In this document: positions 14,694 through 31,838 of the stretch, one piece after another | How positions within the stretch are numbered: the first letter of the stretch is position 1 | Layout of the letters: every line of letters starts with the position of its first letter | Program-made: the position numbers and the translations under genes | The notes under the pieces: generated by a model | The model's database searches: none | The model's input: the letters and a program-made list of their open reading frames with translations, nothing else | What the model was told of the DNA's origin: nothing | Assembly (NCBI GenBank): GCA_002841435.1 | Contig: PGZS01000001.1 | Coordinates: 5,328 to 69,327, forward strand | Source of the DNA: Firmicutes bacterium HGW-Firmicutes-3 | GTDB lineage: Bacteria > Bacillota > Clostridia > Lachnospirales > Vallitaleaceae | Direction of reading: 5' to 3' | Length of the DNA stretch: 64,000 nucleotides

Positions 14694-14702
14694 CCCAAAC
14701 CT
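14694..14702 (+). repeat. Left target-site duplication CCCAAACCT
   Basis: Directly abuts the IS4 outer IR; an identical 9-mer is at 31830-31838. Confidence 0.85.
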
Positions 14703-16319
14703 CAATGTCATTTAGTTAACGGCGAATAACCAGAAACAGAGATGGAAATATTAGATATTTTCTATCTCTGTTTTTTAATCATATTTTTAGCATGTTTCTT
14801 TCTATGACAAAAAGACAGATTGTCATCTGCCTAAATAAAACATATAATAATTTTGAATTATGCTATTCTATAGAGGAAACTTACTGTTTTCTGGATTTTG
14901 ACTTTGCGAGGGTCTTTGCGTCCAGGTCTTACAGGCAATACGTTCCTCAGTATCAGCAATTCTATATCAGGTGGACTCAAGGCTCTTTTATTCTTTAGGT
15001 ATTCTCTACAGATAAATATTGCCAACGTAAAGTTCACCTGATATATTTTTGCTTTTTTGTTTGTTTCACAATAGCTTTTGTTATTATTGATTCGCAAAAA
15101 TTGTACAATACTAATCTTGCAAAAATTTCTTGTCTTTATGTAGTTAGTCTTTTTTGCATGGAAATTTGATAAGCCTACAGCATACTTTAATTCCCTAAAA
15201 GATGTTTCAATTCCCCATCTCAAGTGGTACAGTTCCTTAATTATATTAGGTGTAAACTCATTTCCATCTAGATTGGTGATGATTGTTTCATATGTGTTAT
15301 CAGTAATTAAAAATCTTACTACTCGAAATAAAATAGGATAATCAATCTTGCTGCCAACAGGTACGTAATCAAACGTCTGACAAGTAGGCATAAATTTATA
15401 ACCATTAGTTAATTTGACTTTCTTTTGACTTCTTGTTAAACGAAAAGAAATAATTTTATCAAATGCACCTTCTTCTGAGATATGCAATCCGGATAGAATC
15501 CCGTTACTACCTTTATCTTTAACGCGTATTATATATTTCCAACCCTTTTCTTCTGCGTGTGCAAAGATATTATAGTTCTCATACCCCCTGTCAGCAATTA
15601 GAATAACATTCTCATCAAATTTAGAACGGTCAATCATCTGTGCACATGCACGAAATTCATTTTTGTTTGCCCAATTTTGTATCGTTGCATCCACATAAAT
15701 TCGGTTCATTACATCGTAGAAAGCGTTTAAATGTAATCGATTGACGCCACCTTCATATTGATTAGAATTGACATATGTCTCTGCATCATTTGGATTTGAT
15801 GCAATTGTCAAATTACTTCCATCACAAGCTAATAGCCTATAACCATTGAATAATTTATTAGATTCCACTACAGATGTAAATTCATGAAATAAAAACTCGA
15901 AGGCTTCAGGTAAAACCTTGGCACGCTGCTGATTATAAGCAGATACCCCCGGAGCATCTTTTGAAAAATCAAAATAATCCAACAGTTCTTTATTCATTGA
16001 ACGCCCAGTCATACCTAATGTAATTTTCATAAATGTCCCAAAATCAATTTTACGTTTTCTGGTAAAATCTTTTTCGGGATTCATAACAAAAAGTGACGAG
16101 ATCTTTTCCATTTCCTCAATAATATTAAACAATAATTTTTTTGCAGTTGAAACAAAGTGCTCTTCCATGTGATAACCTCCTAAAATATAATTTATTCAAG
16201 AGGCTTCGCCACATTTTTTTGGAAAATTGTCAAGTTATTTATATATATTTTTGAAAAAAGAGCCTTGTGTTTTTAATAAACACAAGACGCTTCATGCTTT
16301 TCTTAACTAAATGACATTG
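14703..16319 (-). mobile_element. IS4-family insertion sequence (1617 bp)
   Basis: Perfect 17-bp terminal IRs CAATGTCATTTAGTTAA (14703-14719) and TTAACTAAATGACATTG (16303-16319) enclose a DDE transposase. Confidence 0.92.
14858..16168 (-). CDS. IS4-family DDE transposase, with a likely compensated frameshift near the C-terminus
   Basis: DFTRKRK, LLACDGS, IADRGY and YHLRWGIETSFRELK (Y-x2-R-x3-E-x6-K) motifs. Confidence 0.9.
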   Translation of the reverse strand: MEEHFVSTAKKLLFNIIEEMEKISSLFVMNPEKDFTRKRKIDFGTFMKITLGMTGRSMNKELLDYFDFSKDAPGVSAYNQQRAKVLPEAFEFLFHEFTSVVESNKLFNGYRLLACDGSNLTIASNPNDAETYVNSNQYEGGVNRLHLNAFYDVMNRIYVDATIQNWANKNEFRACAQMIDRSKFDENVILIADRGYENYNIFAHAEEKGWKYIIRVKDKGSNGILSGLHISEEGAFDKIISFRLTRSQKKVKLTNGYKFMPTCQTFDYVPVGSKIDYPILFRVVRFLITDNTYETIITNLDGNEFTPNIIKELYHLRWGIETSFRELKYAVGLSNFHAKKTNYIKTRNFCKISIVQFLRINNNKSYCETNKKAKIYQVNFTLAIFICREYLKNKRALSPPDIELLILRNVLPVRPGRKDPRKVKIQKTVSFLYRIA

Positions 16320-16341
16320 CCCTAATGGGCTCCTAAGTGAA

Positions 16342-16632
16342 TTAAAAGAAGGCTATTGTCTTTTTAACGTTATTATTTTTAAAAAAGTCATCCATATAGC
16401 TTAACAACTCATTAATCTGAGAAAAACGCTCACCTTCCATAAGAGTATATAGAAGATTTTCACAGTCATTTAGACTAAGGTTTAAAGCCTGTAATTCTTC
16501 ATAGTTCTTACTGTTAAGTAATTCAAAAATCTTCAGTTCTTCATTTATTCCCATTCTAGCGTCTGGGATGCCGATATCTGAGGTTTCCATTTTTTCAAGA
16601 AACGCACCAACAGATAAATTATAAAAATACAT
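16342..16632 (-). CDS. Hypothetical protein (96 aa)
   Basis: ORF with strong AGGAGG RBS; no recognisable motif. Confidence 0.55.
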   Translation of the reverse strand: MYFYNLSVGAFLEKMETSDIGIPDARMGINEELKIFELLNSKNYEELQALNLSLNDCENLLYTLMEGERFSQINELLSYMDDFFKNNNVKKTIAFF

Positions 16633-16717
16633 AAAGCTACCTCCTAATTTGCTATAATATCAAGCATTTTCAACATGGCGGTAAATTTACTTACAGCTTT
16701 CATATCTATTAAGATTA

Positions 16718-17257
16718 CTAATTTTGGGTTCCTGAAAAGAAATCCTTTGGAAGAATATTACCCATTAAATCATAATAGGTACGCTGAATTCTCTTCAAAT
16801 ACATCTTGCCACCAGTAACTTCTAAGGTAGCAATTACCATACGTCCAGAAAGCGTGTTCGAAAAGTCTTGGCGATATTTACAAGGTTCTATTCTTACTGA
16901 TGTAGCAGGGTCTTCAAATACAAAAATATTCATATCTTTCCCAACCGGAATAACAATTTTACAATAAACAAAATACTCCTTCGGTTTTAGAATAAGACCC
17001 AAACTTTTTATAGATAAAAACATCATAATATAGGTTAATGCTTCTTGAGCAAAACGATTCATAACATCCGCTCTTGAGAAAATACTATCTTTAAATGGTT
17101 CCTGGTCCATTCTAGGATAAGCAGAATACAGATTTGCTTTCTTTTTATATAAACCCGTTTCTAGAAAAGAATTTCGTGACTTGATAGACTCAAGAGAACC
17201 TAAAAGCTTATGTTTTGATGCATCAAGCTTACTATACTTTTTAGCGAGGGTATACAT
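16718..17257 (-). CDS. Hypothetical protein (179 aa), possibly frameshifted from an upstream TM-anchor segment
   Basis: Long ORF in AT-rich DNA. An upstream ATG near 17325 encodes a hydrophobic stretch (MVEVSAVIFIILINLLVG) in another frame. Confidence 0.5.
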   Translation of the reverse strand: MYTLAKKYSKLDASKHKLLGSLESIKSRNSFLETGLYKKKANLYSAYPRMDQEPFKDSIFSRADVMNRFAQEALTYIMMFLSIKSLGLILKPKEYFVYCKIVIPVGKDMNIFVFEDPATSVRIEPCKYRQDFSNTLSGRMVIATLEVTGGKMYLKRIQRTYYDLMGNILPKDFFSGTQN

Positions 17258-17615
17258 ACTAAAAGTAAGTACCCCACAAGTAAATTAATAAGTATAATAA
17301 AAATAACGGCACTTACCTCAACCATCACACAACCCCCTATGTAAATATACCAAATGATTTAGCAATGGATCTTAAAGTCATTTTGATTACAGAAAAACAA
17401 GATTCCTCATTAACGTCACTTTCTTCATACCAATCACAATCAATAACATCGGAAAACGGATTAATACTTATGTCATTATGGTTTTGCAAATTGATTTCAT
17501 CAAAAAAATCACTGCCCTCCACTACATCACAATCGATAATATCTTTTAAATGTGTTTGCTAATATAAAAGCGTACACTATGCTCTCTCAGAGCGAAATAT
17601 TCAATTGAGAAGGCT

Positions 17616-18485
17616 TTGGTTGAAGAACAGGTAACATTTAATGCTTTTTCAAGACAAAACATAAAAGATTTTATCAGTTGGTTAATAGAAAAGAAGTATG
17701 CTCCAAAAATCATTAACTTAAAGCTTACAGCTATAAGATCATTCTTAAAATACTGTAGCGAAGAAGACTTTGAATTAAGAGGAATCTATACAGAAGTATG
17801 CACAGTTAAAAAGCAAAAGGAAGAAAAACGTCCCATTGAGTATCTTCAGCCAAATGTTACGGCTGCTATTCTTTCAGCTTATGATACATACACCTCTAAG
17901 CATAGACGAAATAGGATGATGTTAATAATGCTTTATGATACTAGATCTCGGGTGCAGGAACTTGCTGATTTAAATCTTAGTTCACTTCATTTAGATACAA
18001 CTAATCCATTTGTAACTTTGATTGGCAAAGGCAAGAAAAGTAGAAATGTTCCTTTATTAAAAAAGACGGTTCAACATTTAGAAGAGTATCTTAAAAAATA
18101 TCATCCTATTGGAGAGGAAAACCCTTTGTTTTATAGCTTCCGCGATAGAAACCCTCATAGATTATCGACTGACAGTATCAGTTTAGTACTTAAAACAGCT
18201 GCTAAAAAAGCTAAAGAATCTTGTGCTGATGTTCCGAAAAGAGTTCATTGTCATATGATTAGAAAAACCAAGGCTATGGATTTATACAAGAATGGTGTGC
18301 CATTACCATTTATCATGCAATTACTTGGTCATGAAAGTATGTCTACGACATCTGGATTTTATGCATTTGCAACACTAGAAATGACGAGCGAAGCAATGAA
18401 TAAGGCAGCACCATCAACAAATTTATCTTTAGAAAAGATTTGGAAAAAAGAAGAAATCAAAAAGATTCTTTATTCCCTAGACTAG
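17616..18485 (+). pseudogene. Tyrosine recombinase, N-terminally truncated; resembles the third recombinase of a RIT element
   Basis: R (SRVQE), GKGKK, HxxR (HMIR), LGH and Y (GFYA) catalytic motifs. TTG start without an RBS; no partner recombinases upstream. Confidence 0.75.
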
Positions 18486-18492
18486 GCAAAAC

Positions 18493-18581
18493 ACTATGCC
18501 GAAGGATCTGAACTAAAACAAGTATTTAAGGAGCTAAATACAAACTTCGGCATAGTATTTTCTTCGGTATAGTCACTATGC
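18493..18581. repeat. RIT-type recombinase binding repeats / element end
   Basis: ACTATGCCGAAG (18493-18504), inverted copies CTTCGGCATAGT (18545-18556) and CTTCGGTATAGT (18562-18573), then ACTATGC. Confidence 0.7.
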
Positions 18582-18762
18582 AAAATTATTTCACCATTAC
18601 TAGGTTCATTTACGAATGAATATGCTTGTCGAATCGTTTCAATAACTATTGGCGTTTAGAATGTGTAGCATAAGCATAATCGAGTATTGCACCATCAAAA
18701 AGGTCCTTTAGTGCTGATAAATATATCGTCCCGTTTAAACCGCTCATCTGGGTAATATCAAT
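18572..18762 (-). pseudogene. IS3-family (IS150-like) transposase core fragment
   Basis: Minus strand reads IDITQMSGLNGTIYLSALKDLFDGAILDY..., then after one frameshift ...EPSNGEIILHSD; this spans the first two catalytic Asp motifs. Confidence 0.7.
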
Positions 18763-18784
18763 GTTATTCTGACATCGGGATAAC

Positions 18785-19329
18785 ATTGATATCACCTATA
18801 TTCGACTTAAGCAGGGGTTCATTTACCTGACAGCTATCATCGATTGGTATAGTCGCTGCATTGCAGCCTGGGATCTGGATGATACACTTGATACTACTTC
18901 AGCATTCAGCACTGAATGCTGTTAAAAAGGCCTTTAAAATAGCAAAACCAGAAATCATAAATTCTGATAAAGCTGACTGTTTACGAGTAAAAAACACACG
19001 GACTACCTCAAAGAACACAAGGTCAAAATCAGTATGGATGGTAAGAATCGATGGGCTGATAATATCATGATTGAAAGTTGATTTCGTACACTAAAGTATG
19101 AGGAAGTCTATTTGAATGACTATGCAAACATCCGTGATGCTAGGACGCGAATCTGAAAAATTATCACCACTTACAACTGGACGAGACATCATTCATAAAT
19201 TGTTTATAAGACTCCTGCAAGTCTTTACTATAGAACTTATGCTAAAGTAGCATAACTACTATGAAACAGGTATCGAATTAGATTCATTAAGAATTTATGT
19301 TTTCGTGTCTTGACTATTAGACCACTATT
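18785..19329 (+). pseudogene. Second IS3-family transposase remnant with its right end
   Basis: IDITYIRLKQGFIYLTAIIDWYSR...PEIINSD...SMDGKNRWADNIMIE...TLKYEEVYL, with frameshifts and stops. Ends in an IS3-like terminus GTGTCTTGACTATTAGACCACTA. Confidence 0.8.
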
Positions 19330-19437
19330 TAATTCAATATATTTAAATATTTCCTTGCGAGCTTGTCCCCTTCTATATATCATGAAGAATACCTTTTCTC
19401 AATAATATAGAATTCTATTCAACTAATTTTTTTTACT

Positions 19438-20307
19438 TTAAGCTCTTAAAGCAAGTTCTAATGAACCCACCAGACCTGCATCCTGACCGTTTTTCGGGTA
19501 TCTAATATATGTATCTAGATTTTCAAGAGCCTGATGCATAACATATCCATTCATATAACGTTTAAAAGCCTCCCTGATTTTTGGAAACATATGCTCCTGT
19601 TGAGAAACTCCACCACCAATCAGAATTATTTCTGGAGATAAAATCAAATTATAAGATACAAGTGCTTGCCCAATATAGTCAGCATTTAGTTCCCAAACTG
19701 AGTTATTCTCCGAAATGAGGGGACCCCTCTTGCCAATTCTTGCTTCGATAGCAGGTCCTGAAACAAGACCCTCGAAGCAGTTTCCGTGAGTCGGACAGAT
19801 ACCTTTGAAGGTATCATCTTTCTTCTGTTTTATAGTGATATGACCCATTTCAGGATGGGTCAAACCATATAGAGTCTCACCTTCTATGACAAAGCCAGCA
19901 CCGATGCCAGTACCAATTGTTATGTATAGAACACTTCGTTTACCTATGCCATATCCATGCCTATATTCGCCAAGAGCAGCTGCATTGACATCTGTGTCTA
20001 TTTTTACCGGTATTTCAAGCGCCTCATAAAAAGTTTTATAAAGATTGATACCACGCCATTTTATCTTCGGTGTATTTTGAATCATACCGTAATCAGGACT
20101 TTCGGGATGGATATCTATCGGACCGAATGTACCAATACCTAGCTTTTGAATCTTATACTTTTTGAAAAAGGCAATAGATTCCTCCAATGTCCTTTCCGGT
20201 TCCAATGTTGGTGTAGTCATCTTATCAATAATATTTAGATTTTCATCCGCTACTGCACAAACGAACTTAGTTCCTCCCGCTTCAATAGCACCTAGCAATT
20301 TTTTCAT
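19438..20307 (-). CDS. ROK-family fructokinase (ScrK/YdhR type)
   Basis: GAIEAGGTKFVCA, GTFGPID, DTDVNAAALGE, TIGTGIG and HPEMGH...CPTHGNCFEG, characteristic of Firmicute fructokinases. Confidence 0.88.
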   Translation of the reverse strand: MKKLLGAIEAGGTKFVCAVADENLNIIDKMTTPTLEPERTLEESIAFFKKYKIQKLGIGTFGPIDIHPESPDYGMIQNTPKIKWRGINLYKTFYEALEIPVKIDTDVNAAALGEYRHGYGIGKRSVLYITIGTGIGAGFVIEGETLYGLTHPEMGHITIKQKKDDTFKGICPTHGNCFEGLVSGPAIEARIGKRGPLISENNSVWELNADYIGQALVSYNLILSPEIILIGGGVSQQEHMFPKIREAFKRYMNGYVMHQALENLDTYIRYPKNGQDAGLVGSLELALRA

Positions 20308-20344
20308 ATTCGTGGTTCTCCAAACAAAGTATTTATATATATTA

Positions 20345-21211
20345 TCATGCTAATATATATCGGCTGAATTCAAGAGCTTGACGCGCTCTATCATCAAGCG
20401 CTTGCTCCGATGCTCCGTCACTTAAATCACGCCATACTTTAATGTCAGTTCCAACTTTTCCACCCATTTTTTCAAATGGTTCCATTACAACAGCATTGTC
20501 ATATCCAATATCATTAAGTGCTTCGTGAATTTCAGCCCAGGGTAAATGTCCTTTTCCAGGTACTTTTCGGTTTGACTCACCGATATGCATATGACCTAGA
20601 TATTTTCCAGCTGTTCTTATAGCTCCGCCAATTGAATCTTCTTCTATATTCATGTGGAATGTGTCTAATAGCACTTTAACATTAGGTGCATCTACTTCTT
20701 GAACAAACTTTACTCCTTCTTCCGCAGTATTCAATAAATATGTCTCAAACCTATTCATAACTTCTATACAAAGAGTTATGCCCTTCTCTTCTGCAATTTT
20801 AGCAATTTCTCTTATCCCTTCGACCCCTCTATTCCAATCCCCAGTCTTATCGACATCAACATCATAGTTTACTGGCCAATAGGTATTTAATGCTCCCCCA
20901 ATAAGATGCACATCCATCTTTTCAAGTTTATCAAACAACGTTTCATAGAATTCTATACCTTTTTTCCTAATACTAACATCTGTAGAAGACAGATTATGTT
21001 CTTTACTTGGGCCATGCCCAACGGTAAGTGTAATGCCATTTTCCCGAGCACAATTTTTAATCTCTTCTATTTGATCATCACTATAATCAACAATGGGTGT
21101 CGCTGCTATTTCGAGTATATCGTATCCAAGTTTTGCAACTTTCTTAATATAATATTTATAATCAGCTTGCCATTCTTTTTCCCAATAAGCATAATATATA
21201 CCAAATTTCAT
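20345..21211 (-). CDS. dpe: D-psicose (D-allulose)/D-tagatose 3-epimerase
   Basis: N-terminus MKFGIYYAYWEKEWQADYKYYI is typical of clostridial DPEases. Metal/catalytic residues are in EVMNRFE, LDTFHMNIEE, HIGESNRKVPG and VMEPF. Confidence 0.9.
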   Translation of the reverse strand: MKFGIYYAYWEKEWQADYKYYIKKVAKLGYDILEIAATPIVDYSDDQIEEIKNCARENGITLTVGHGPSKEHNLSSTDVSIRKKGIEFYETLFDKLEKMDVHLIGGALNTYWPVNYDVDVDKTGDWNRGVEGIREIAKIAEEKGITLCIEVMNRFETYLLNTAEEGVKFVQEVDAPNVKVLLDTFHMNIEEDSIGGAIRTAGKYLGHMHIGESNRKVPGKGHLPWAEIHEALNDIGYDNAVVMEPFEKMGGKVGTDIKVWRDLSDGASEQALDDRARQALEFSRYILA

Positions 21212-21261
21212 TATCTACACTCCTATTCATTCATTAAATATATGTATTTTTAATAATTCGT

Positions 21262-22305
21262 TTATTGATTTCTTGCATTTTCACGTAAGTATTTGTTTCT
21301 CAAATTAGTTGCAAATCGTCGATAAATTATAATTAGTACAAGCAATACGCCCCACATAGTTAATGCAACAAACTGACTTATACCTAGTGCATTTATTCCG
21401 CTATTCAGTATTTGAAGGGTAAACAAAGCTAATATTACACCTCCAACTCTAACATAACCACCTTCAGGATTTGTTCCTCCAAGTACCGCTATAAGAACAC
21501 TCAACAATACGTAGCTCGTTCCAAAACGTGCATTTGCAGAGTTTATTCTGGAAATCATAATAACAGAAGCGATTCCTGACATCAGACCACTAAGCATATA
21601 TGTATATAGAATTGTTTTCTTAACATTTATACCAGAGTATTCTACTGCCTCAGCATTTGAACCAATCATAACTTGATATTTGCCAACAGGTGTTCGCTGT
21701 ATAATAATCAATATTATTACAACAAATATAGCAAAAATAATGAATGGTAAAGGAATACCTAAGATAGAACCATTACCAATTTTCAAAAACATATTCGGCA
21801 ACCCAGATATTCCTTTTCCTTTTGTTATGGAAAGGGAAAATCCTTCATATAAAATCATTGTACTTAACGTTGCCAAAACCGGACTTATTTTAATGTAGCC
21901 GACAAGAATACCATTTAGTAAACCTAATATCATAGCAATGACCAATCCGACAACGATTGCAATGACAACGATAAAAAATGTATATCCAGAGGTTGAGTTT
22001 TCTGCTACAGCTTTTGTCATAATCAAAGCCATAATAACACCAGAAAAGTTTGCTGTGCTAATTACTGAAAGATCAATACCACCAGTCATCATCGCGAGCA
22101 TCATTGCCATAGAAAACAATCCAAGCTCTGGTATTTGAAATGCCATTGATCGTATGTTTGTAAATGAAAGAAATTCAAAAGAAGTTGCTACTGACATGAA
22201 GGATAGGATGACAACAAGCAATATTGGTAATAGAATTTGATCCAAATTCATCCCGGCGGTTCTTTTTAATTTATCATAATTGATTTTATGCTTCTTCAAA
22301 GTCAA
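21262..22305 (-). CDS. Monosaccharide ABC transporter permease (CUT2/RbsC family)
   Basis: TGGIDLS, GSNxEA..YSGINV and AVLGG motifs; multi-pass TM. Confidence 0.9.
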   Translation of the reverse strand: MTLKKHKINYDKLKRTAGMNLDQILLPILLVVILSFMSVATSFEFLSFTNIRSMAFQIPELGLFSMAMMLAMMTGGIDLSVISTANFSGVIMALIMTKAVAENSTSGYTFFIVVIAIVVGLVIAMILGLLNGILVGYIKISPVLATLSTMILYEGFSLSITKGKGISGLPNMFLKIGNGSILGIPLPFIIFAIFVVIILIIIQRTPVGKYQVMIGSNAEAVEYSGINVKKTILYTYMLSGLMSGIASVIMISRINSANARFGTSYVLLSVLIAVLGGTNPEGGYVRVGGVILALFTLQILNSGINALGISQFVALTMWGVLLVLIIIYRRFATNLRNKYLRENARNQ

Positions 22306-23302
22306 CGCCCCCCGCTTTCTTTTTGTCTAACCTGGTTCTAGTCGCAGTAGTTGCTACACTGGCTACCATTATCAAACCGATAAAAATTTGATGCCAGAAT
22401 GTAGGAACTGCCATTACTGTCAGGCCATTTTTAAGAATAGCTACAAACAGTACACCTAAAACAGTTCCTCTTATGGATCCTGCTCCTCCAGATATACTTG
22501 CTCCACCTAGTACAACCGCGGTCAGTACATCAAATTCCTTACCTATCAATGCGTTAGGTGCTGCTGTCTGTGTGAGCATAGCATGTATGATTGCTGCAAC
22601 CCCTGCTACAAGACCTAGAAATGCATGAACAAAAATGCGAGTACGGTTTACATTGATACCTTGTCTATCAGCTGCTATCGTGTTACCACCAACTGCATAG
22701 ATTTTCCTACCAAGCATTGTATAACGAAGAATTACAAATCCAATTATACATACTAGAATCCATATAACGGTTACGGATGAAAGTCCGATGGTAACCCCAT
22801 CATCGTTGAGAACTTTCAGTACTAATTTTCTTGGAAAACTTGTAAACCATTTTGGGAAACCATACAATTGATTTCCTCCTGAAATAAACTGAATTCCACC
22901 ATAGTATGCATTCAAGGTTGCTATCGTAATAATTATTGCTGGTACTTTAAGCCAATTTATTAAAACGCCATTCAATGCTCCTAATAATCCTCCTACCACG
23001 ATTGGTCCTAGTAAGATAACGGCAATAGGGATATTCTTGTCAGACAACAAAAGGGATGCCATGAGGAACTGGACAACTGTTGCTGTTGCTGTAAATGAGA
23101 TGTCTATACCGTTAGTGATTAGTACAAATAGAAAACCTATTGAACATATCCCAATAAAAGTTGCCCCTCTTAGAATATCAAAGGTGTTCTCAAGTGAAAA
23201 AAAGCTAGGACTAATCAATGACATAACTAAAATCATTAGTATAATTATTATTGTTAGTATGTTTTCATTCTTTTTAAATATCTTCAGAGCAGAAAAATTC
23301 AT
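22286..23302 (-). CDS. Monosaccharide ABC transporter permease (CUT2/RbsC family)
   Basis: GIDISF, YAVGGN and AVVLGGASISGGAG motifs. Confidence 0.9.
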   Translation of the reverse strand: MNFSALKIFKKNENILTIIIILMILVMSLISPSFFSLENTFDILRGATFIGICSIGFLFVLITNGIDISFTATATVVQFLMASLLLSDKNIPIAVILLGPIVVGGLLGALNGVLINWLKVPAIIITIATLNAYYGGIQFISGGNQLYGFPKWFTSFPRKLVLKVLNDDGVTIGLSSVTVIWILVCIIGFVILRYTMLGRKIYAVGGNTIAADRQGINVNRTRIFVHAFLGLVAGVAAIIHAMLTQTAAPNALIGKEFDVLTAVVLGGASISGGAGSIRGTVLGVLFVAILKNGLTVMAVPTFWHQIFIGLIMVASVATTATRTRLDKKKAGGVDFEEA

Positions 23303-23330
23303 GGTATTACTTCCTTTTCATTTAAAGTCA

Positions 23331-24827
23331 TTAAGAGAGATTGTATTTTTCTAGAAGTTCGTCTTCTGTCAGTTCATCAGGTTTAAACTCACATAGAATT
23401 TTACCATCTCTCATAATTAAAATTCTATGGCAATTAGTCTGAACTTCTTGAATTTCGGAAGATATCATGATTATTGACATCCCCAAGTTTGCAAGCACCT
23501 TAATTAAAGTATGTATACTGTTTTTAGCAATTACATCAATACCTATTGTAGGTTCATCGAGTATTAAGATTTTCGGATTAACTTTCAGCCATTTAGCAAG
23601 GACTATTTTTTGCTGATTACCTCCTGACAAAGTCTTAACTGCAGCTTCAGGAAGTGACATTCTTATTTTTAATTCCTCTTTCATTTCATTTAACATTTCA
23701 AGTCTCTTGCCATCTTCAAGCAAACCAGCTTTATTGACATAAGATAACAAGGTTGTGATAGTGATATTATCAATTATTGGTTGATCCATAATCAGTCCAT
23801 GATTCATTCTATCCTCTGGAACGTAACCAATTCCTGCGCTAATGGCCTCTCTATTTGAACGCCACTTGACTTCTTGTTTTTCAAAGATTATCTCGCCCGA
23901 ATCTGGAGGATTCATTCCAAACAATGAAAGTGCAAGTTCCGTTCTTCCTGATCCAAGTAAACCTGTTATGCCTAAAATTTCACCCTTTTTCAATTCAAAT
24001 GAAATGTCTTTATAATTTCTGGCTTTAGTTAGGTTCTTAACATTTAAGATTACATCTGCATCATCTTCCAATGGTTTAGGGTGATTTTTATCTTCTCTTG
24101 TATTTGTCATAAAGTATACCAATTTATCATGATCAAGTTCTTTTGGTGAATAGACTCCAATTTTCAGCCCATCCCTTAAGATGGTAACTTGTTCAGCAAC
24201 TTCAAACACCTCATTTAGTTTATGACTTACAAAAAGTATAGAAATACCTTTTTCTTTTAAACGACTTATTACTCTAAAAAGAGAATTAACTTCACGTTTT
24301 GTCAAAGATGCAGTTGGTTCATCAAGGATTAATAATTTCAACTCCACAGTCAATGCTTTGGCAATTTCTACAAGTTGTTGCTGTGCGATTGACAACTCTT
24401 CAACTTTTTTATGTAGTTGGATATTAACTCCAATCTCGTCTAATGCTTTCCGTGCAATCTTGTCCATATTTTTCCAGTTAACAAATTTAGAATGTTTTTC
24501 TCTGTTGCTTCCAAATGCAATATTTTCAGCTACAGTGAGATTTGGAAATAATGAAAGATCTTGATATATTACCTGGATTCCTTTTTCCATGCTGATTTTT
24601 GAGTTTAAATGATTGCACAACTCCCCATCAATAATTATCTTTGAATCTGGTTCAGGTTTCTCGACTCCTGATAATATTTTTATTAGCGTTGACTTTCCAC
24701 TACCATTCTGACCAACCAGACAATGAGCCTCACCGCGCCTGATTATAAAATCTACACCATTAAGGGCTTGTATGCCCGGATAAAGCTTGTTAATGTTTTT
24801 CATTTCAATGATATTTTTTGTAGGCAT
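23331..24827 (-). CDS. Sugar ABC transporter ATP-binding protein (two fused ABC domains, RbsA type)
   Basis: GQNGSGKST, LILDEPT and LSGGNQQK motifs. Start re-placed to 24827 (GGAGAGG RBS). Confidence 0.92.
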   Translation of the reverse strand: MPTKNIIEMKNINKLYPGIQALNGVDFIIRRGEAHCLVGQNGSGKSTLIKILSGVEKPEPDSKIIIDGELCNHLNSKISMEKGIQVIYQDLSLFPNLTVAENIAFGSNREKHSKFVNWKNMDKIARKALDEIGVNIQLHKKVEELSIAQQQLVEIAKALTVELKLLILDEPTASLTKREVNSLFRVISRLKEKGISILFVSHKLNEVFEVAEQVTILRDGLKIGVYSPKELDHDKLVYFMTNTREDKNHPKPLEDDADVILNVKNLTKARNYKDISFELKKGEILGITGLLGSGRTELALSLFGMNPPDSGEIIFEKQEVKWRSNREAISAGIGYVPEDRMNHGLIMDQPIIDNITITTLLSYVNKAGLLEDGKRLEMLNEMKEELKIRMSLPEAAVKTLSGGNQQKIVLAKWLKVNPKILILDEPTIGIDVIAKNSIHTLIKVLANLGMSIIMISSEIQEVQTNCHRILIMRDGKILCEFKPDELTEDELLEKYNLS

Positions 24828-24867
24828 ACAAACCTCTCCATTCATTTATTCTTATGTGGTTACATTC

Positions 24868-25932
24868 TTAGAATCCAAAAGAATCAATATTCTCAAGTGT
24901 TACTTCAGAGTCTGCGTGAAATGTGATAACTTTTCCATCAGCTACCGTTTCACCGTATATCGGTACTTCTGTTATACTTGAAATATCCATACCATTTTCA
25001 CTTAGAGTTTTTACAACATAGCTTGTAACATAACCAATATTGTAGGGGCTACCAATAATTGCGCTTGTAATACTTCCATCTTCAATAAAAGGTTTTGCTT
25101 GACTAGGAACCGCTGTTCCTACAACTACAAATTTGCCAATAAGATTTTTCTCTTGAATAGCTGTAGCTGCGCCTATCGGTCCATTTGTACCAATATAGAT
25201 CATACCACCTAGATCTTCATGTGCTTTGATCAGCTCTAGTGTTGTATCATGAGCTTGGCTTACATCTTCCGATCCTTCAACTCTACTTGTTACTTCATAC
25301 ATATCAGGATAATTTTCTTTTTGATATGCTATTGCTGCATCTGCACGAGCATTGTGATTTTCAACTGTCAATCCACCAACCATAATTGCATAGCCGCCCT
25401 TTTCTCCCATACCTTTTGCCAAAGCATCCATGTATTGTTGACCAACTCTGTCAATAAATAAGAATTCGATATCAGCATCTGCATTTTCTATTGAAGACGC
25501 TTCTTGTGATATAACCAATATACCGGCTGCTCTTGCTTTTTCAAGAACTGGTTCAAGCACTTGTGTGTCATTTGGTACTACAACAATAACATCAGGTTTT
25601 CTTGCAATGACGTCTTCTAATGCTTTTACTTGCTGTAAAGGATCGGCTTCAGCTGGTCCACTTACTGATATGTTTAACCCACCAAACTCTTTAGCATAAT
25701 CCTTCATTCCTTTTTCCATCGCATTAAACCAAGGAATACCTGTAATTTTTGGCACAAACACAACTTCAAGAATTTTTTCTTCCGTTATTTTAGATGTTGA
25801 TTCTTCCGTCTTCGTCGCTGTTTCTTCGTTACTTTCTGATTTGGATGTACATCCGGATAACCCTAAAATCAATCCTGTAACTAATGTAAAAACAAACCCC
25901 ATAAATACTAATTTCTTCACTACATTTACCAT
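24868..25932 (-). CDS. Sugar ABC substrate-binding lipoprotein (LsrB/RhaS-like class)
   Basis: Lipobox LSGC, VPKITGIPWF and GPAEADPLQQ motifs; periplasmic-binding-protein type I character. Confidence 0.88.
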   Translation of the reverse strand: MVNVVKKLVFMGFVFTLVTGLILGLSGCTSKSESNEETATKTEESTSKITEEKILEVVFVPKITGIPWFNAMEKGMKDYAKEFGGLNISVSGPAEADPLQQVKALEDVIARKPDVIVVVPNDTQVLEPVLEKARAAGILVISQEASSIENADADIEFLFIDRVGQQYMDALAKGMGEKGGYAIMVGGLTVENHNARADAAIAYQKENYPDMYEVTSRVEGSEDVSQAHDTTLELIKAHEDLGGMIYIGTNGPIGAATAIQEKNLIGKFVVVGTAVPSQAKPFIEDGSITSAIIGSPYNIGYVTSYVVKTLSENGMDISSITEVPIYGETVADGKVITFHADSEVTLENIDSFGF

Positions 25933-26119
25933 TTTACTCCTCCTATTAAATTTATTTTGTAATTGTTATCAACTTAATAATAGCACTCACCGCATCTTTT
26001 GTCAATGTCTTTTACTAAAGATACGGCAATATGTTTTTAACATATTTGTTACTTAACCAACTATTATTAAAGAAAGTTAGTGTATAATTATTATAGGTAA
26101 AAGAAAAGCTTAAATATGA

Positions 26120-26825
26120 AAATATACTACAGATGAAATTGAACTACGAATACTGAATGGTAATGAAGGCAGTTAGATAAAAGATCCATATGAGGCAGAT
26201 ACAATATTTCAAGTAGATCGTTTTCATATACATCAAGATATTAAACATAAAATCAAAGATAAGCAAGCACAAAAGCAGACTACAGAATTGTTTGAGTCAG
26301 AAAAGCCAGAGGAAATGTTTGAGTATATACAGATGTATGCAGATAGCGTTGCAAGTAATTAAGAAAACGATAAACGAAATGAAAATGCAATGAGGCTATA
26401 TCAATATTCAGATAATAACAGAGAAGGATTATCCCATATCAGAGCAGAGTTAGAAATCTTCCAGAACCTAAAGAAGGGCTTGTATGTAAAAATATGGGAG
26501 TTCAAGAAAATCAGAACTGTACTACAATTACCATGAGAATGAAAGGTAGACGGACGAGAGGATCTGAATCAAGTGCAAATAATATGGCGAAATTATTGTA
26601 TAGCAAAGAAAATAAGCAGTTAGCTGAAACGATTGAAAGATATACAGACGGGTTAATATTTGCAATAAAAATGGAAGAAGTATTAACGATTTTAAGTGCT
26701 GCAAAGGCACCTAAAAAAGATGGTAAAGGTAATCCTCATATGTAGATGTTATTAATCATCACGTGCCATTAAGAGATACAATGCAGACAGCTTCAAGAAA
26801 AATATTCAAGAGAGTATTTTCATAA
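26120..26825 (+). pseudogene. ISLre2-family (UPF0236) transposase remnant
   Basis: Broken frames RILNGNEGS*IKDP...FQVDRFHI and MGVQENQNCTTITMRMKGR...ANNMAK. Confidence 0.65.
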
Positions 26826-26975
26826 GAAGAAATATGTTGCTAAGGCTTATTTAAAGACCATAAAAAAATAATGATTTATAAGAGCTAAAAAGTCACAAAA
26901 TCTAATATTAATTTTTTGAAATAAAATAGACTGGAACCTTTGCCTATGTGCCTATAAATAGTTGATATTAAATAT

Positions 26976-27005
26976 TTGATAAAACATAATAAGCTATGTT
27001 ATAAT
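26976..27005 (+). promoter_or_regulatory. Candidate sigma-A promoter facing the ROK regulator, now separated from it by IS30
   Basis: TTGATA-18 nt-TATAAT with an extended -10 TG. Confidence 0.4.
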
Positions 27006-27153
27006 ATGTTTAACAAAAGATGTACTCTTAAGTTTTGTCGGATTTTCATATTTATGTATTCAAATCAATTTTACCTTTTTTAACAATATTTATAAGTATA
27101 TTAATCTAAATACCTTATCGTTAAGTTTTAATGGATTTATAATTTAAATAAGG

Positions 27154-28692
27154 TGAATTGAAATCCGAGATACCAGTTTATAAAATCAACTTCCAGTTCA
27201 GCATTTCCCTTGCAAGACTAAATTCTTATAAACTAAGTTACTACTAAAATACTGGAAGTAAGTATTGCAAATAGTTCTATAGCTGTAACTTACCATACCA
27301 AACAGATTGTTTTATGGTCCAATAGCTATTATGCTTTTTTTGAGGTTAATACCACTGAAAAAAAAGTGCACTCTAACCGGAAATCGAATTTAGCTTCCCT
27401 TTTCGCAAGATTAATTTTCACCCCTATACAGTTCGATATCGATTCCGAATGGCGTTTACTATTTTACTTTTTTAGCAACAGAGGTGTTAGATTAATCTCA
27501 TTAGCGGGAATGAGCTTAATAATAAGCTTATCAAGAATTTCCACGCTATTTAGGAAGCTGAACATCTGGTGTGCGGACTGGTTATTCAGCTTTCTTCTGG
27601 TATATGAATTGATATGACTCATCATCAGGGAAGTATCATTCTGATTCAGTTCATCAAAGGATATTCCTTTTGGTAACACACGTCGCATCATTTCATGCGT
27701 CACCTCACACCCACCTTTTTGATCAGAGCGTTGTGGATTGCATTAAAACATACGGGTTCTGCGCTCATTATCCTTGTTAAACTCTATAACAAGAGGATTT
27801 GTAAATTTATTCCTTCTGTCTGCGAGGATGACTTGGAATAAATCAGTAAATGTATCATGACCTAAAAGTTCGTACATCCAATCAAATATTTCTGTTACTG
27901 TTCTGGACGTATTTGTGTCTCGGATAAAATGCTAACATAAGACTGCTGCCTCTAAAGTAGATAGTGAGAAGTACATTTTCACCTTTGCATTCTTCTATAG
28001 AATTCATTTCTACGATAGGGATATAAGGATTTACAGCAATGTAGGACTCGAACTCTTCATGGGTTCGCTCTATATGACATTGATTATCTACTATTACAGG
28101 TTTTTTGCGTGAGCGGGTACGGTATCTAAACTTCCTGGGAAGATCGATGTTGTCAACGGATAAAAGACCTGCATCAATGAATTATTGATAGTCTTTTCAT
28201 CCAACATGATATTGTTAGAATTATTGACACAAATTATGTGTATCGATTGTCCTTGCTTAACCAATGGTGAGTTGATTCCATCGATACGTTTTAGTTCCGC
28301 CGGGGTAATAGCTATTCCTTGGTGGCTCTCAGGACGAATGGACTCGGATTTCTTTTGTGCATTATTAGCATTATAAAGATGACGTTCCAGCTTGCAGCGC
28401 ATGCGGGAATCACAGCTGTTACAGACATAAGGTGGTTTATCCAGTTCTTTTCAAATCTCAGCAAATGAGTCTCCTTCTCTATAGGAGACTTCAATATGGA
28501 CTCTTTCATCAAGAGTCAGATGTGCGTTTTTCGCCATGGTAATTTCTCCTTGGATTTATGCCATCCGGACTCTGTTTCTAAGCCATTAGTATATCAGACC
28601 AGAGCATTTGCAACAGAAAATTCTGGTAGTAACTTTTCAATAATAAGTTCCAGTTTTTGGCTGAATGAATTGGAATTTAACTTTTCAATTCA
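27154..28692 (-). mobile_element. Degraded IS30-family element
   Basis: Terminal IR TGAATTGAAA / TTTCAATTCA. Fragmented transposase runs from ATG 28537 (MAKNAHLTLDER) to 27464 (RRVLPKGISFD...HINSYTR), with stops, frameshifts and a deletion. Confidence 0.75.
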
Positions 28693-28717
28693 GCATAATT
28701 TACATAAAGGAAATAAT

Positions 28718-29917
28718 ATGAAAAAAAATACAACAGCTTTAGTACGGAAAGCGAACAAAGCATTAGTACTTACCACAATTAAAGATAATGAGCCTATAAC
28801 ACTTGAAGATGTTCTAAAAATCACAAATTTAAGTCGTCCCACTGCCCATACTATTATTAAAGAACTTATGGATGATAAATTAGTTTACAAACATGGTTAC
28901 GCTGAATCATCTGGTGGTAGAATGCCAATCCTCTACTGTTTTAATGCAACAGCTCACTATGCAATAGGTGTTGATTTCGAGTTTCCCCCTGTTAGACTTA
29001 TTATTTCCGATTTAAAAGGAAAACTTATACATTCAAAAGGATGGGTCTTTAGTAGAAACGTTTCAAAAGAGAAAGTTATAGATGATTTGTTACATGGCAT
29101 TGAAGAAATAATTATTGATTCAGGTATTTCAAAAGAAAAATTCATAGGTATCGGCGTCGGGTTACCTGGTATTATCGATTATGAAAAAGGTTTATCAAAA
29201 AATATCGAAAGAATAGCCAACTGGCATAATGTGAATATCAAAGAAATTCTACAAAAAAGATTAGAACTACCTGTATATATTAGAAATGATGTACACTTAT
29301 TAGGATTGATAGAAAAGGAATTATACCAAGGTGTTAACATGTCAAACTTTATATATATAGGTATAAGAGCCGGAACTGGTATGGCTATATTCATCAATGA
29401 TACTTTTTTTAAAGGAATGATGGGTAACGCAGGATTTCTTGGTCATACTATCGTTGAATCTGAAGGTCCTAATTGCACATGTGGAAATAAAGGCTGTTTA
29501 GAAACATATACTAGTGAGCTTGCAATAGTACGTAGATATTTAGAAGCTGCAAATCTTGGATTTTCTGAAGAAAATGATAATTTATCAGTGTCGGATATAA
29601 TCGAAAAAGCTAATGAAAACGATCCGCTTGCAATTGAAATTTTAGAGAGTTCAGGACAATATCTAGGAATAGCAATTTCAAATTTAATCAAAATTCTCGA
29701 AATTCCTACTGTCATAATAGGTGGCCTTGTTGATACAAAAAAACAAATTTTTCTTAACAGTGTTATTCAAGAAGCTAATAAAAATTTACTAAACTATTCT
29801 ATTGATACTCCATTCATTATAAAAGGTTCACTTACTCATGAAAGTTTTGCTTTAGGAGGATGCTTATTGGTCATAGATAATTTCAATAAAGCACCTTTCC
29901 TTCGTGTACATATATAG
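28718..29917 (+). CDS. ROK-family transcriptional repressor (XylR/NagC type)
   Basis: N-terminal wHTH (TNLSRPTA...SSGGR), YIRNDV and GFLGH...GPNCTCGNKGCLE. True start is ATG 28718 (AAAGGA RBS); the track's extension to 28496 lies inside IS30. Confidence 0.9.
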   Translation: MKKNTTALVRKANKALVLTTIKDNEPITLEDVLKITNLSRPTAHTIIKELMDDKLVYKHGYAESSGGRMPILYCFNATAHYAIGVDFEFPPVRLIISDLKGKLIHSKGWVFSRNVSKEKVIDDLLHGIEEIIIDSGISKEKFIGIGVGLPGIIDYEKGLSKNIERIANWHNVNIKEILQKRLELPVYIRNDVHLLGLIEKELYQGVNMSNFIYIGIRAGTGMAIFINDTFFKGMMGNAGFLGHTIVESEGPNCTCGNKGCLETYTSELAIVRRYLEAANLGFSEENDNLSVSDIIEKANENDPLAIEILESSGQYLGIAISNLIKILEIPTVIIGGLVDTKKQIFLNSVIQEANKNLLNYSIDTPFIIKGSLTHESFALGGCLLVIDNFNKAPFLRVHI

Positions 29918-30005
29918 AATCATTGTTTATGTTATAGATAAATAATGACACAGTTATTTACACTCGTTACTTAATGAAAAACTGTTTATTAAAGGAGTAG
30001 CTTAT

Positions 30006-31811
30006 ATGGAATATCTACATTTACAAAAAGGACTTCGACTTAGAGGCAATTTACCTAAAATTGGGATTAGAATAATTGTTGACGGAAGAAGAGATGGTAT
30101 TAGGGAAATGCTTGAAGAGCCAATCTTGATTCAGGCTAAGAAAGTTAAGTTACTGCTTGAAAACAACTTGTTTTACCCAAGTGGAGATAAGGTGCAGGTT
30201 ATACTTTCAGAAACTAGCATAGGTGGCGTCAGCGAAGCGGCAAAGGTGCAAGCACAATTTAACAAAGAGGGTGTTGGCGCAATACTTGATATAACTCGAG
30301 ATTGGGCATATCCATCGGAAGTTATCGATTTGGACCCTGTAATTCCCAAAGCAATCTGGGGATTCAATGGTAGTGAACGGCCCGGTTCAGTCTATCTAGC
30401 ATGTGCCACTGCAACGAGTGAACAAAAGGGATTGCCTGTATTTAAAATTTTTGGGCGCGATGTTCAAGATGCTGATGACTATTCAATTCCAAATGATGTA
30501 GCAGAACAAATTTTACTATTTTGTAAAGCCGCTCTAGCCATAAACATCATGAGAAACAAATCATATCTCTCTATAGGATCTGTTAGTATGGGTATTGGGG
30601 GATCTATCCTAATTCCCGATTTATTTCAAACATATTTTGGTATGAGAAATGAATTTGTAGATATGACTGAAATCATCCGTCGAATAGACAAGGAAATATA
30701 TGACGTTAATGAATTTCATGAAGCTCAAAAATGGGTACAAGAAAATTGTATTGAATATGAAGACACTAATCCTTCTATGATTCAAGAATCAAAAGAAAAA
30801 AAAGCTTCTAACTGGGAAATTGTAATCAAGATGTACCTTATCGCTAGAGACTTAATGATCGGCAATGAAAAATTAAGTGATATTGGTTATAAAGAAGAAA
30901 GCGAAGGACATAATGCTATTCTTGCAGGATTTCAAGGTCAACGGAGTTGGACAGATCACTTTCCTAACGGCGACTTCATGGAAGCGATGCTAAACTCATC
31001 ATTTGACTGGAACGGTATCAGACAGCCTTATTTAATGGCAACAGAAAATGACAGTCTTAATGGATTGTCAATGTTAATGGGACATCTTTTAACAGGTACA
31101 TCACAAATTTTTGCTGATGTACGAACCTACTGGAGTCCTTATGCAATAATGCGAGTCACAAATATGTCCTCGTTGCCAGAGGAAATTTTAAATGGTTTTA
31201 TTTATCTTTCTAATTCAGGTGCTGCTGCTTTAGATGGTACAGGAGAGTCAAGTAAAGATAATAAATCTGCTATATTACCACATTGGGAGATGACAACTAA
31301 TGATGTCAAAAAATGTATCAACGCAACTTCCTGGGGGCCTGCGAAACTATCAGCTTTTAGAGGTGGTGGCTTTTCATCTAACTATACGACAAAAGGTGAT
31401 ATGCCCATGACAATTGTTAAATTAAATTTCATTAAAAATCAAGGTCCAGTACTTCAATTAGCAGAAGGTTTTTCAATTGATCTTCCTACTGATATTAGAG
31501 ACATTATTGTTTCACGTACAGATGAGACTTGGCCCAAGACTTTTTTTGTTCCAAAATTGACAGGAACTGGTGTATTTAAAGATGTTTATTCAGTTATGAA
31601 TAAATGGGCTTCTAATCACTGCTCCATTTCATATGGACACATAGGTCATGAGTTAATAACATTAGCTTCAATGCTTAGAATACCCGTTATGATGCATAAT
31701 GTTGAAGAAGAAAGAATATTTAGACCTAGTATATGGAGCACTATGGGTACCGAATCACTTGAGTCTGCAGATTATAGGGCATGCAATTTACTTGGTTCCT
31801 TATATAAATGA
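30006..31811 (+). CDS. fucI: L-fucose/D-arabinose isomerase family protein (divergent)
   Basis: DGRR, WGFNGSERPG, SMGIGGS, GFQGQR, ATENDSLN (metal Glu), FADVRTYWSP (metal Asp) and WASNH (metal His); 601 aa. Confidence 0.9.
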   Translation: MEYLHLQKGLRLRGNLPKIGIRIIVDGRRDGIREMLEEPILIQAKKVKLLLENNLFYPSGDKVQVILSETSIGGVSEAAKVQAQFNKEGVGAILDITRDWAYPSEVIDLDPVIPKAIWGFNGSERPGSVYLACATATSEQKGLPVFKIFGRDVQDADDYSIPNDVAEQILLFCKAALAINIMRNKSYLSIGSVSMGIGGSILIPDLFQTYFGMRNEFVDMTEIIRRIDKEIYDVNEFHEAQKWVQENCIEYEDTNPSMIQESKEKKASNWEIVIKMYLIARDLMIGNEKLSDIGYKEESEGHNAILAGFQGQRSWTDHFPNGDFMEAMLNSSFDWNGIRQPYLMATENDSLNGLSMLMGHLLTGTSQIFADVRTYWSPYAIMRVTNMSSLPEEILNGFIYLSNSGAAALDGTGESSKDNKSAILPHWEMTTNDVKKCINATSWGPAKLSAFRGGGFSSNYTTKGDMPMTIVKLNFIKNQGPVLQLAEGFSIDLPTDIRDIIVSRTDETWPKTFFVPKLTGTGVFKDVYSVMNKWASNHCSISYGHIGHELITLASMLRIPVMMHNVEEERIFRPSIWSTMGTESLESADYRACNLLGSLYK

Positions 31812-31829
31812 TGAAAATAAATGACATTG

Positions 31830-31838
31830 CCCAAACCT
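31830..31838 (+). repeat. Right target-site duplication CCCAAACCT
   Basis: Directly follows the cryptic IS end TAAATGACATTG (31818-31829). Confidence 0.85.

What the first reader, a model, noticed from the sequence alone, without database searches (positions are those of the whole stretch)
14694..31838. A single IS4 appears to have moved 17.1 kb using a cryptic surrogate end
Seen: the IS has two perfect 17-bp IRs, but its inner end (16319) is not followed by the duplicated target. Instead, CCCAAACCT (14694-14702) reappears at 31830-31838, directly after GAAAATAAATGACATTG. That sequence matches the IR at 14/17 nt with the terminal 12 identical, and lies right after the fucI stop codon. There is no second IS4 copy. 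Inference: the transposase paired the downstream IR with an IR-like sequence 15.5 kb beyond its own upstream end and captured a whole catabolic cluster. Such one-IS transposition units are well known for ISEcp1 (IS1380 family); I do not recall them as a standard feature of this IS4 group.
Basis: partly seen in the sequence, partly recalled or inferred. Interest (0 to 1): 0.82.

Follow-up and report, generated by a model that had tools for sequence, protein, structure and literature searches.

The report
Sugar-cluster transposon with one stub end
A 17-kilobase block with rare-sugar genes sits between two conserved genes of a bacterium, bounded by one whole insertion sequence and a 12-base stub of the same end; the stub is likely the leftover of a lost second copy rather than a chance look-alike end, which would make this an ordinary kind of jumping element.

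Summary
Observation confirmed. A 17,127-bp unit (14703-31829) carries an exact 9-bp target duplication. Four of five congeneric genomes show the empty site with one CCCAAACCT in a terminator-like hairpin. The left end is a complete IS4-family element (single copy in the genome; transposase hit by two compensating frameshifts). The right end matches only the terminal 12 bp of its inverted repeat. IS4-type transposition of the whole unit is therefore well supported. How the right end arose is not settled: no donor was found. I favour a composite whose second IS or MITE copy was later deleted to a stub (0.55) over a native cryptic end (0.30). This IS clade inserts just behind stop codons, leaves 5-18-bp end relics, and gave no second one-ended unit among 42 paired and 49 unpaired ends. 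The stub also lacks three conserved IR bases. Neither route is new to the family: ISAba1 (IS4 family) forms the single-copy, 9-bp-duplicated Tn2008, and ISApl1 stumps mimic one-ended units. This scan noted a similar unit in another genome (e1-5299586). Cargo: D-psicose 3-epimerase, sugar ABC transporter, ROK kinase and regulator, L-fucose isomerase, and five mobile-element scars.

The parts
14694..14702 (+). Left copy of the 9-bp target duplication CCCAAACCT, in the loop of a terminator-like hairpin between two convergent host genes
   Evidence: (empty site folds at z -4.3 and -3.8)
14703..14719 (+). Right IR (downstream of the transposase) of the IS; outer left end of the unit
14858..16168 (-). 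IS4-family DDE transposase, 436 aa (D116, D193, Y314-R317-E321-K328). An extra base near 15133 and a missing base near 15054 put about 27 codons out of frame; likely inactive
   Evidence: (NF033592, 143.9 bits, cut-off 115)
16303..16319 (-). Left IR of the IS (inner end). It is followed by CCCTAATGGG, likely half of an older target site
   Evidence: older-target reading inferred from the near-palindromic targets of relatives (this flank alone does not fold significantly)
16342..17257 (-). Two hypothetical ORFs (96 and 179 aa), no family, no DNA match in 34 family genomes
17570..17603 (+). 34-bp stub identical to the right end of IS21-family elements in G005
17616..18579 (+). 3' part of a tyrosine recombinase and the end of its element, 78% identical to a three-recombinase (RIT-like; label recalled) element in G005
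18773..19297 (+). IS3-family transposase remnant
19438..25932 (-). Sugar operon: ABC solute-binding protein, ATPase, two permeases, D-psicose 3-epimerase (NF051856, 456.8 bits, cut-off 300), ROK kinase (fructokinase-like, below cut-off)
26177..26745 (+). ISLre2-family transposase remnant (weak hits)
27154..28695 (-). IS30-family remnant, 89-90% identical to a copy in G005
28718..29917 (+). ROK-family transcriptional regulator. Likely start MKKNTT; the longer ORF from 28496 runs through IS30 sequence
30006..31811 (+). L-fucose isomerase FucI, 601 aa (NF008220, 899 bits, cut-off 775); nearest other protein 69% identical
31813..31829 (+). Far end: terminal 12 bp (31818-31829) identical to the IR; differs at IR positions 13, 16 and 17
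31830..31838 (+). Right copy of the 9-bp target duplication

Best explanation
The 17.1-kb block is a single insertion with a 9-bp target duplication, bounded by one whole IS4-family element and a 12-bp stub of its end, and it likely moved as an ordinary composite transposon whose second copy (full IS or miniature derivative) was later deleted down to that stub. Shown: the two ends, the duplication, the empty site in relatives, the single IS copy and the frameshifted transposase. Inferred sequence of events: (1) in a foreign donor, one IS copy landed in the hairpin behind the 96-aa ORF (leaving CCCTAATGGG at 16320) and a second behind fucI, as this clade habitually lands behind stop codons; (2) the transposase paired the two outer ends, cut out the block and pasted it into the terminator loop of the host; (3) a slip between a few bases just after the fucI stop and the same bases inside the far IR removed the second copy except its last 12 bp and kept the duplication; (4) the remaining transposase took two frameshifts, so the unit is probably fixed.
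For: Insertion: empty site in 4 of 5 congeners; cargo GC3 0.21-0.30 against 0.31-0.37 for host genes. Targeting: 18 of 26 duplication-flanked relatives sit in strong hairpins and 15 of 26 lie within 60 bp of a stop codon, whereas 1.4% of window positions lie within 20 bp after a stop (the ORF thresholds differ, 100 and 150 aa). In G008 an end of this IS clade lies 28 bp after the stop of another fucI. Relics with a break inside or at the IR exist in this clade: a 24-bp relic with a 5-6-bp stub and an exact 10-bp duplication (L141), a 32-bp relic with a 12-bp stub (L136), a lone 18-bp IR (L140), and a derivative ending at an internal 9-bp repeat of the IR tip (L151). The stub misses G13, A16 and A17, held in 52, 52 and 49 of 52 ends (partly circular, since these ends were found by the pattern, but the ends found through the transposase keep them too). 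A chance 12-bp match within the cargo has only 0.3-0.5% odds. No relative showed an intact IS plus external cargo closed by a distant IR-like end: 0 of 42 paired and 0 of 49 unpaired ends. The cargo holds another end stub (IS21, 34 bp) and four more scars. Precedent: single-ended mcr-1 units arise by loss of the second ISApl1 (PMC5821093, passages and part 1 of the Discussion read).
Against: No trace of a second copy remains beyond 12 bp: the last 400 bp show no IS homology other than the IR tip. In the relics seen, the deletions stayed inside the element and spared the other IR; here the inner IR would have to be lost as well. No terminator arm is left between the fucI stop and the stub. The ISApl1 loss route depends on copy-out chemistry of the IS30 family, not IS4. 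Single-copy IS4-family units do transpose in nature (Tn2008). L151 can equally be read as transposase use of a native 9-bp cryptic end. The survey reached at most 20 kb from each end and could only find ends of 17 bp.
Confidence: 0.55

Rival explanations
1. One-ended capture, the first reader's model: the transposase paired the right IR with a native 12-bp look-alike just after fucI, skipped its own left IR and moved 15.5 kb of neighbouring DNA. No second copy ever existed.
For: Exactly one IS copy. The stub holds the whole tip of the IR and fits the published IS4-subgroup end signature -AATR--------WTW (PMC2266710, Table 1 read). The divergence is abrupt at position 13, with no IS sequence behind it. 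ISAba1 of the same family forms single-copy Tn2008/Tn2008B, seen at several sites with 9-bp duplications. L151 proves that a duplication-flanked unit of this clade can end at a native IR-like 9-mer.
Against: It needs a 0.3-0.5% chance match that also falls within 20 bp of a stop codon (1.4% of positions). It must outcompete a perfect IR 1.6 kb away with an end that lacks three conserved bases. No second example among 91 related ends. Only one insertion site is known.
Confidence: 0.3
2. Recycled stump: a second copy had already decayed to the 12-bp stub in the donor, and the transposase then used that stub as a substitute end. The move is one-ended, but the end is not cryptic.
For: It explains the exact 12-bp match and the position behind a stop codon without chance. 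The cargo region is full of stubs and scars. ISApl1 units that keep the whole far IR appear mobile.
Against: It needs both rare steps, the deletion and the use of a deficient end. The mobile ISApl1 cases keep the entire IR, while this one keeps 12 of 17 bp.
Confidence: 0.1
3. Coincidence or misassembly: the IS and the sugar island arrived separately or were joined by the assembler, and the repeats are chance.
For: The assembly is fragmented (343 contigs). Source-run contigs break at a 34-bp repeat inside the cargo (17570-17603), and the window seems to lack about 149 bp at 14006.
Against: Contigs bridge both junctions without differences and at equal depth. The two flanks are adjacent in four congeners with a 9-bp overlap. 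The 12-mer beside the 9-mer is far beyond chance.
Confidence: 0.03

Closest known systems
Tn2008 / Tn2008B of Acinetobacter (one ISAba1, IS4 family) (PMC9771954 and PMC6861865, passages read; PMC9165733, part 1 of 2 read)
   Same: One complete IS4-family element, adjacent cargo, and a 9-bp duplication around the whole unit.
   Different: Tn2008 is seen at many sites with different duplications and its donor chromosome is known; this unit is known at one site with no donor. The cargo here is 15.5 kb of catabolic genes, the IS belongs to a different, hairpin-targeting clade, and its transposase is frameshifted. I could not obtain the far-end sequence of Tn2008 to compare.
Single-ended ISApl1-mcr-1 derivatives of Tn6330 (IS30 family) (PMC5821093, passages and Discussion part 1 read)
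   Same: One whole IS, cargo, a short IR-like far end and a flanking duplication; first read as one-ended transposition, later as decay of a composite.
   Different: Different family and chemistry (copy-out, 2-bp duplication). Here the 9-bp duplication is unambiguous, and no intact composite is available to prove the decay.
IS4-family composite transposons (Tn5/IS50, Tn10/IS10, Tn2006, Tn1999) (PMC9330008, passages read; Tn10 details recalled)
   Same: IS4-family outer ends, about 9-bp duplication, non-matching inner flank, and one copy with a defective transposase as in IS50L.
   Different: Only one IS copy is present today; the other end is 12 bp.
ISEcp1 / ISPme1 transposition units (IS1380 family) (PMC9330008 and PMC7046756, passages read)
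   Same: Architecture of one IS plus neighbouring DNA closed by an IR-like sequence.
   Different: Not an IS1380 transposase (31.6 bits, cut-off 180). Those elements capture DNA beyond their 3' end with variable end points as a habit; here the cargo lies beyond the 5' end and no second case was found in the clade.
IS231-type passenger elements and mobile insertion cassettes (PMC2266710, parts 1-2 of the main section and passages read)
   Same: IS4-family ends carrying extra genes; this clade also forms such cassettes (4.27 kb in G001 and G005).
   Different: There the passengers lie between the element's own two full IRs; here they lie outside a complete IS.

Membership tests
IS4 family (the 1,617-bp element) | D(60-110)D(100-150)E triad | tested here: met
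   D116, D193, E321: spacings 77 and 128 (protein; definition)
IS4 family (the 1,617-bp element) | Y(2)R(3)E(6)K motif | tested here: met
   Y314-R317-E321-K328; NF033592 above cut-off
IS4 family (the 1,617-bp element) | Single-ORF transposase | tested here: met
   One 436-aa ORF, but with a compensated frameshift pair that is mutational, absent from 9 aligned relatives
IS4 family (the 1,617-bp element) | Target duplication of about one helix turn | tested here: met
   9 bp here; 9-12 bp in 26 of 42 paired relatives
IS4 subgroup of the IS4 family | Ends -AATR--------WTW and size 1400-1650 bp | tested here: met
   CAATGTCATTTAGTTAA, 1,617 bp
IS4 subgroup of the IS4 family | Direct repeat of 10-13 bp | tested here: inconclusive
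   9 bp at this site; relatives give 10 bp in 22 of 26, 9 bp in 2, 11 and 12 bp in 1 each. Filed as IS4-subgroup-like only
IS4 subgroup of the IS4 family | Transposase clusters with named subgroup members | not tested
Composite transposon | Two copies of the IS bracket the cargo | tested here: not met
   One copy only; a former second copy is inferred, not seen, so this is not filed as an intact composite
Composite transposon | Duplication flanks the outer ends; inner flank differs | tested here: met
One-ended transposition unit (Tn2008 / ISEcp1 type) | One IS plus adjacent cargo inside one target duplication | tested here: met
One-ended transposition unit (Tn2008 / ISEcp1 type) | Far end is native donor sequence, not IS-derived | tested here: inconclusive
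   No donor found:
One-ended transposition unit (Tn2008 / ISEcp1 type) | Same unit, or variable end points, at several sites with different duplications | tested here: inconclusive
   Only one site known; holders are 4 runs of one study; 0 of 91 related ends gave a comparable unit, within at most 20 kb
One-ended transposition unit (Tn2008 / ISEcp1 type) | Transposase moves the unit with the imperfect end | not testable with these tools
   Needs a transposition assay
IS1380 family (ISEcp1) | IS1380 transposase | tested here: not met
   NF033539 31.6 bits, cut-off 180
IS231-type passenger element / mobile insertion cassette | Passenger genes between the element's own two IRs | tested here: not met
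   The cargo lies outside a complete IS with both IRs

The most novel reading that the evidence does not exclude
A hairpin-targeting, IS4-subgroup-like element performed a true one-ended capture: its transposase accepted a native 12-bp end lacking three conserved IR bases, skipped a perfect end 1.6 kb away and moved 15.5 kb of rare-sugar catabolic genes. That would extend ISEcp1/Tn2008-type gene capture to a widespread clade (ends in 86 of 401 genomes of the order) and show that the terminal 12 bp suffice as an end over 17 kb.
Probability: 0.3. Interest if true: 0.5.

Novelty: new member of a known kind. Interest (0 to 1): 0.3.

Why it matters
It is a clean natural record of an IS4-family element delivering a catabolic cluster (D-psicose epimerase, transporter, kinase, fucose isomerase) into a chromosome, with an exact empty site in four species. 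It also illustrates a trap: units that look one-ended can be decayed composites, and in this clade deletion relics and surrogate ends give the same sequence. If the cryptic-end reading held, it would define a minimal 12-bp end for this clade and add a non-resistance, 15-kb case to the few IS4-family one-ended units. That would interest IS specialists but would not be a new mechanism.

Tried and rejected
Donor searches, all without a usable donor: FucI protein search, best other hit 69%; exact 28-nt junction in metagenome contigs, 0; FucI C-terminal 239 aa in metagenome contigs, 0 confirmed of 23 candidates; DNA 16320-17620 in 34 family genomes, only the IS21 stub matched; DNA 28720-31829 in 398 other genomes of the class, 0 at E 1e-120, with 2 more not scored; the unit against 30 relatives, no match above 78% for the sugar genes or fucI. 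Run X5 (another study, small share) holds two short contigs near 96-98% to the regulator and the start of fucI, but none of its listed pieces covers the fucI end (19 pieces not shown): a lead only. The IR-like site at 26003-26019 (3 mismatches) was considered as an inner end and rejected as chance (0.65 expected per window; 21 other sites with up to 3 mismatches in the genome). Reading ATGACATTG in the stub as the start of a next gene was dropped: no purine-rich ribosome-binding site precedes it. Misassembly was rejected. A hairpin at the inner flank could not be shown by folding (z 0.2). The far end of Tn2008 could not be compared: one review was not held, one recalled accession was not in the plasmid collection, and the passages read do not give it. 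Nine paper searches were run; none of the listings or passages I read describes a one-ended unit for this clade, but subscription papers such as Nigro and Hall 2016 (seen only as a reference) are not held. No structure prediction, complex prediction or tree was run.
Full report
1. Observation. The IS spans 14703-16319 (1,617 bp) with perfect 17-bp IRs. CCCAAACCT stands at 14694-14702 and 31830-31838, and 31813-31829 matches the IR at 14 of 17 positions with the last 12 exact. The unit between the duplications is 17,127 bp. The genome (2.99 Mb, 343 contigs, 86% complete, 36.8% GC) has no other copy or fragment of the IS. The 12-mer is expected 0.003-0.005 times in the 15.5-kb cargo on one strand under Markov models of order 0-3.

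2. The insertion is real. The left flank matched 4 of 5 congeneric genomes; G003 had no match. The site is the loop of a strong hairpin between convergent genes (z -4.3 and -3.8). A co-occurring population in runs X2-X4 also shows the empty site. Contigs from the possible source runs cross the left junction, the whole IS and its inner end in one piece and the right junction in another, without differences and at equal depth (16.8 and 16 in X1; 12.1 and 12 in X3). These runs are not independent evidence; they argue against misassembly and for a single IS copy.

3. The IS. The transposase passes the NCBIfam IS4 model and has the DDE spacing and YREK motif defined in PMC2266710 (parts 1-2 of the main section and passages read). 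Its ends fit the IS4-subgroup signature. Alignment with 9 relatives shows one extra base near 15133 and one missing near 15054. The frame is restored, but about 27 residues just after YREK are replaced, including 6 of 66 positions invariant in 16 other intact transposases; only one further invariant position differs. The enzyme is likely inactive, and recently so (inference).

4. The clade. The exact end pattern occurs in 86 of 401 genomes of the order. Of 42 IR-paired elements with both flanks (8 at contig ends and 1 duplicate dropped; some are not independent, such as three G205 copies in one repeat and the shared G001/G005 cassette), 26 have exact duplications: 22 of 10 bp, 2 of 9 bp, and 1 each of 11 and 12 bp. 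Five have one mismatch and 11 have none. Of the 26 rebuilt targets, 18 are strong hairpins, 15 lie within 60 bp of a stop codon and 2 lie inside ORFs. Non-autonomous forms are common: a 153-bp miniature element, internally deleted copies, and a 4.27-kb passenger cassette.

5. The cargo. After two orphan ORFs come a 34-bp IS21 end, a truncated tyrosine recombinase and an IS3 remnant. Then follow the operon for a sugar ABC transporter, D-psicose 3-epimerase and a ROK kinase, ISLre2 and IS30 remnants, a ROK regulator and fucI. GC3 is 0.21-0.30 against 0.31-0.37 in host genes, and the host has no other fucI, epimerase or similar binding protein. The likely use is D-psicose to D-fructose to fructose 6-phosphate (inference from family names). 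No fuculose kinase or aldolase is in the cargo, so it is not a full fucose pathway; FucI may feed in an aldose such as D-altrose (recalled activity, untested). G003 has a 64-70% similar epimerase-ABC cluster without fucI in the 20 kb read.

6. Cryptic end or stump. The decisive test, the donor sequence beyond fucI, failed for lack of a donor. Indirect evidence for a stump: (a) a cryptic end needs a 0.3-0.5% match that also lands within 20 bp of a stop (1.4% of positions), while a second copy would land there by habit, as one does 28 bp behind another fucI in G008; (b) the end lacks G13, A16 and A17; (c) breaks inside the IR occur in this clade: L141, L136, L140 and L151; (d) no intact IS with external cargo closed by a surrogate was seen among 42 paired and 49 unpaired ends (one duplicate among the 49; five had under 5 kb to scan and one had too little flank). 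Evidence for a cryptic end: no IS sequence survives behind the 12 bp; the relics seen keep their other IR; L151 ends at a native internal ATGACATTG of the intact IS and could be surrogate use as well as a slip between 9-bp repeats; and ISAba1 does form such units. My rough rate estimates for the two routes overlap. I put them at 0.55 (composite, then deletion), 0.30 (native cryptic end), 0.10 (older stump reused) and 0.03 (artefact).

7. Known systems. One-ended transposition with a surrogate end is described as a rare general mechanism (PMC3333477, passages) and as habitual for IS1380 elements (PMC9330008 and PMC7046756, passages). For the IS4 family, Tn2008 and Tn2008B carry one ISAba1 and occur at several sites with 9-bp duplications (PMC9771954, PMC6861865 and PMC8942029, passages; PMC9165733, part 1). 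The opposite lesson comes from mcr-1, where single-ended units proved to be decayed composites (PMC5821093). PMC5313175 (passages) added nothing on the far end. I read no supplements; the end alignments in the additional files of PMC2266710 bear on the subgroup assignment.

8. Verdict. A real and well-documented IS4-family cargo insertion of a known kind. Interest 0.3.

Noticed in passing
L064:133-4405 (G001:C2) and L061:6647-10928 (G005:C1): A 4.27-kb non-autonomous cassette with a 10-bp duplication. Its left 304 bp are 90% identical to the window's IS and its right 86 bp resemble the end of a related IS. It carries a DMT-type transporter, a PaaX-like regulator and a membrane protease-like gene.
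   Followed up: partly
L151 (G205:C1, 3,537 bp ending at 4908519): A decayed IS with a 590-aa passenger ORF, ending exactly at a native internal ATGACATTG of the transposase gene and flanked by a 10-bp duplication with one mismatch.
   Followed up: yes
L141:101-124, L136 (G346), L140:101-118: Tiny relics of this IS clade in hairpin loops: 24 bp with an exact 10-bp duplication, 32 bp with a 12-bp stub, and a lone 18-bp IR.
   Followed up: partly
L109:4544-15199 (G069:C14): Two IS copies 7.4 kb apart whose left flanks are reverse complements of one 10-mer, suggesting an IS-mediated inversion.
   Followed up: no
L051:11995-12024 (G008:C11): An end of the same IS clade 28 bp after the stop of another fucI (66% DNA identity).
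   Followed up: partly
window 17570-17603; L158, L161 (G004): A 34-bp IS21 right-end stub in the cargo; G004 has similar short IS21-end relics, one of about 47 bp with both ends.
   Followed up: partly
window 14006-14007: Four congeners have about 145-150 extra bases here, and contigs identical to the window's own strain run on with other letters at this point. The assembly has probably lost about 149 bp, which may truncate the ORF 14029-14637.
   Followed up: partly
window 26003-26019: IR-like site with 3 mismatches in the promoter region of the sugar-binding protein gene; compatible with chance.
   Followed up: yes
window 28678-28849 and 29837-30099: Run X5, from another study, has short low-depth contigs near 96-98% identical to the regulator and the start of fucI: a possible donor relative.
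   Followed up: partly
L053:5462-14881 (G003): A related epimerase-ABC cluster with a xylulokinase-like gene, an M24-like gene and a LacI-like regulator (labels from my reading of the sequences, not from a family scan).
   Followed up: no
window 7813-7848 and 13152-13187: 36-nt inverted repeat, 83% complementary, 5.3 kb apart, the top-ranked in the window.
   Followed up: no
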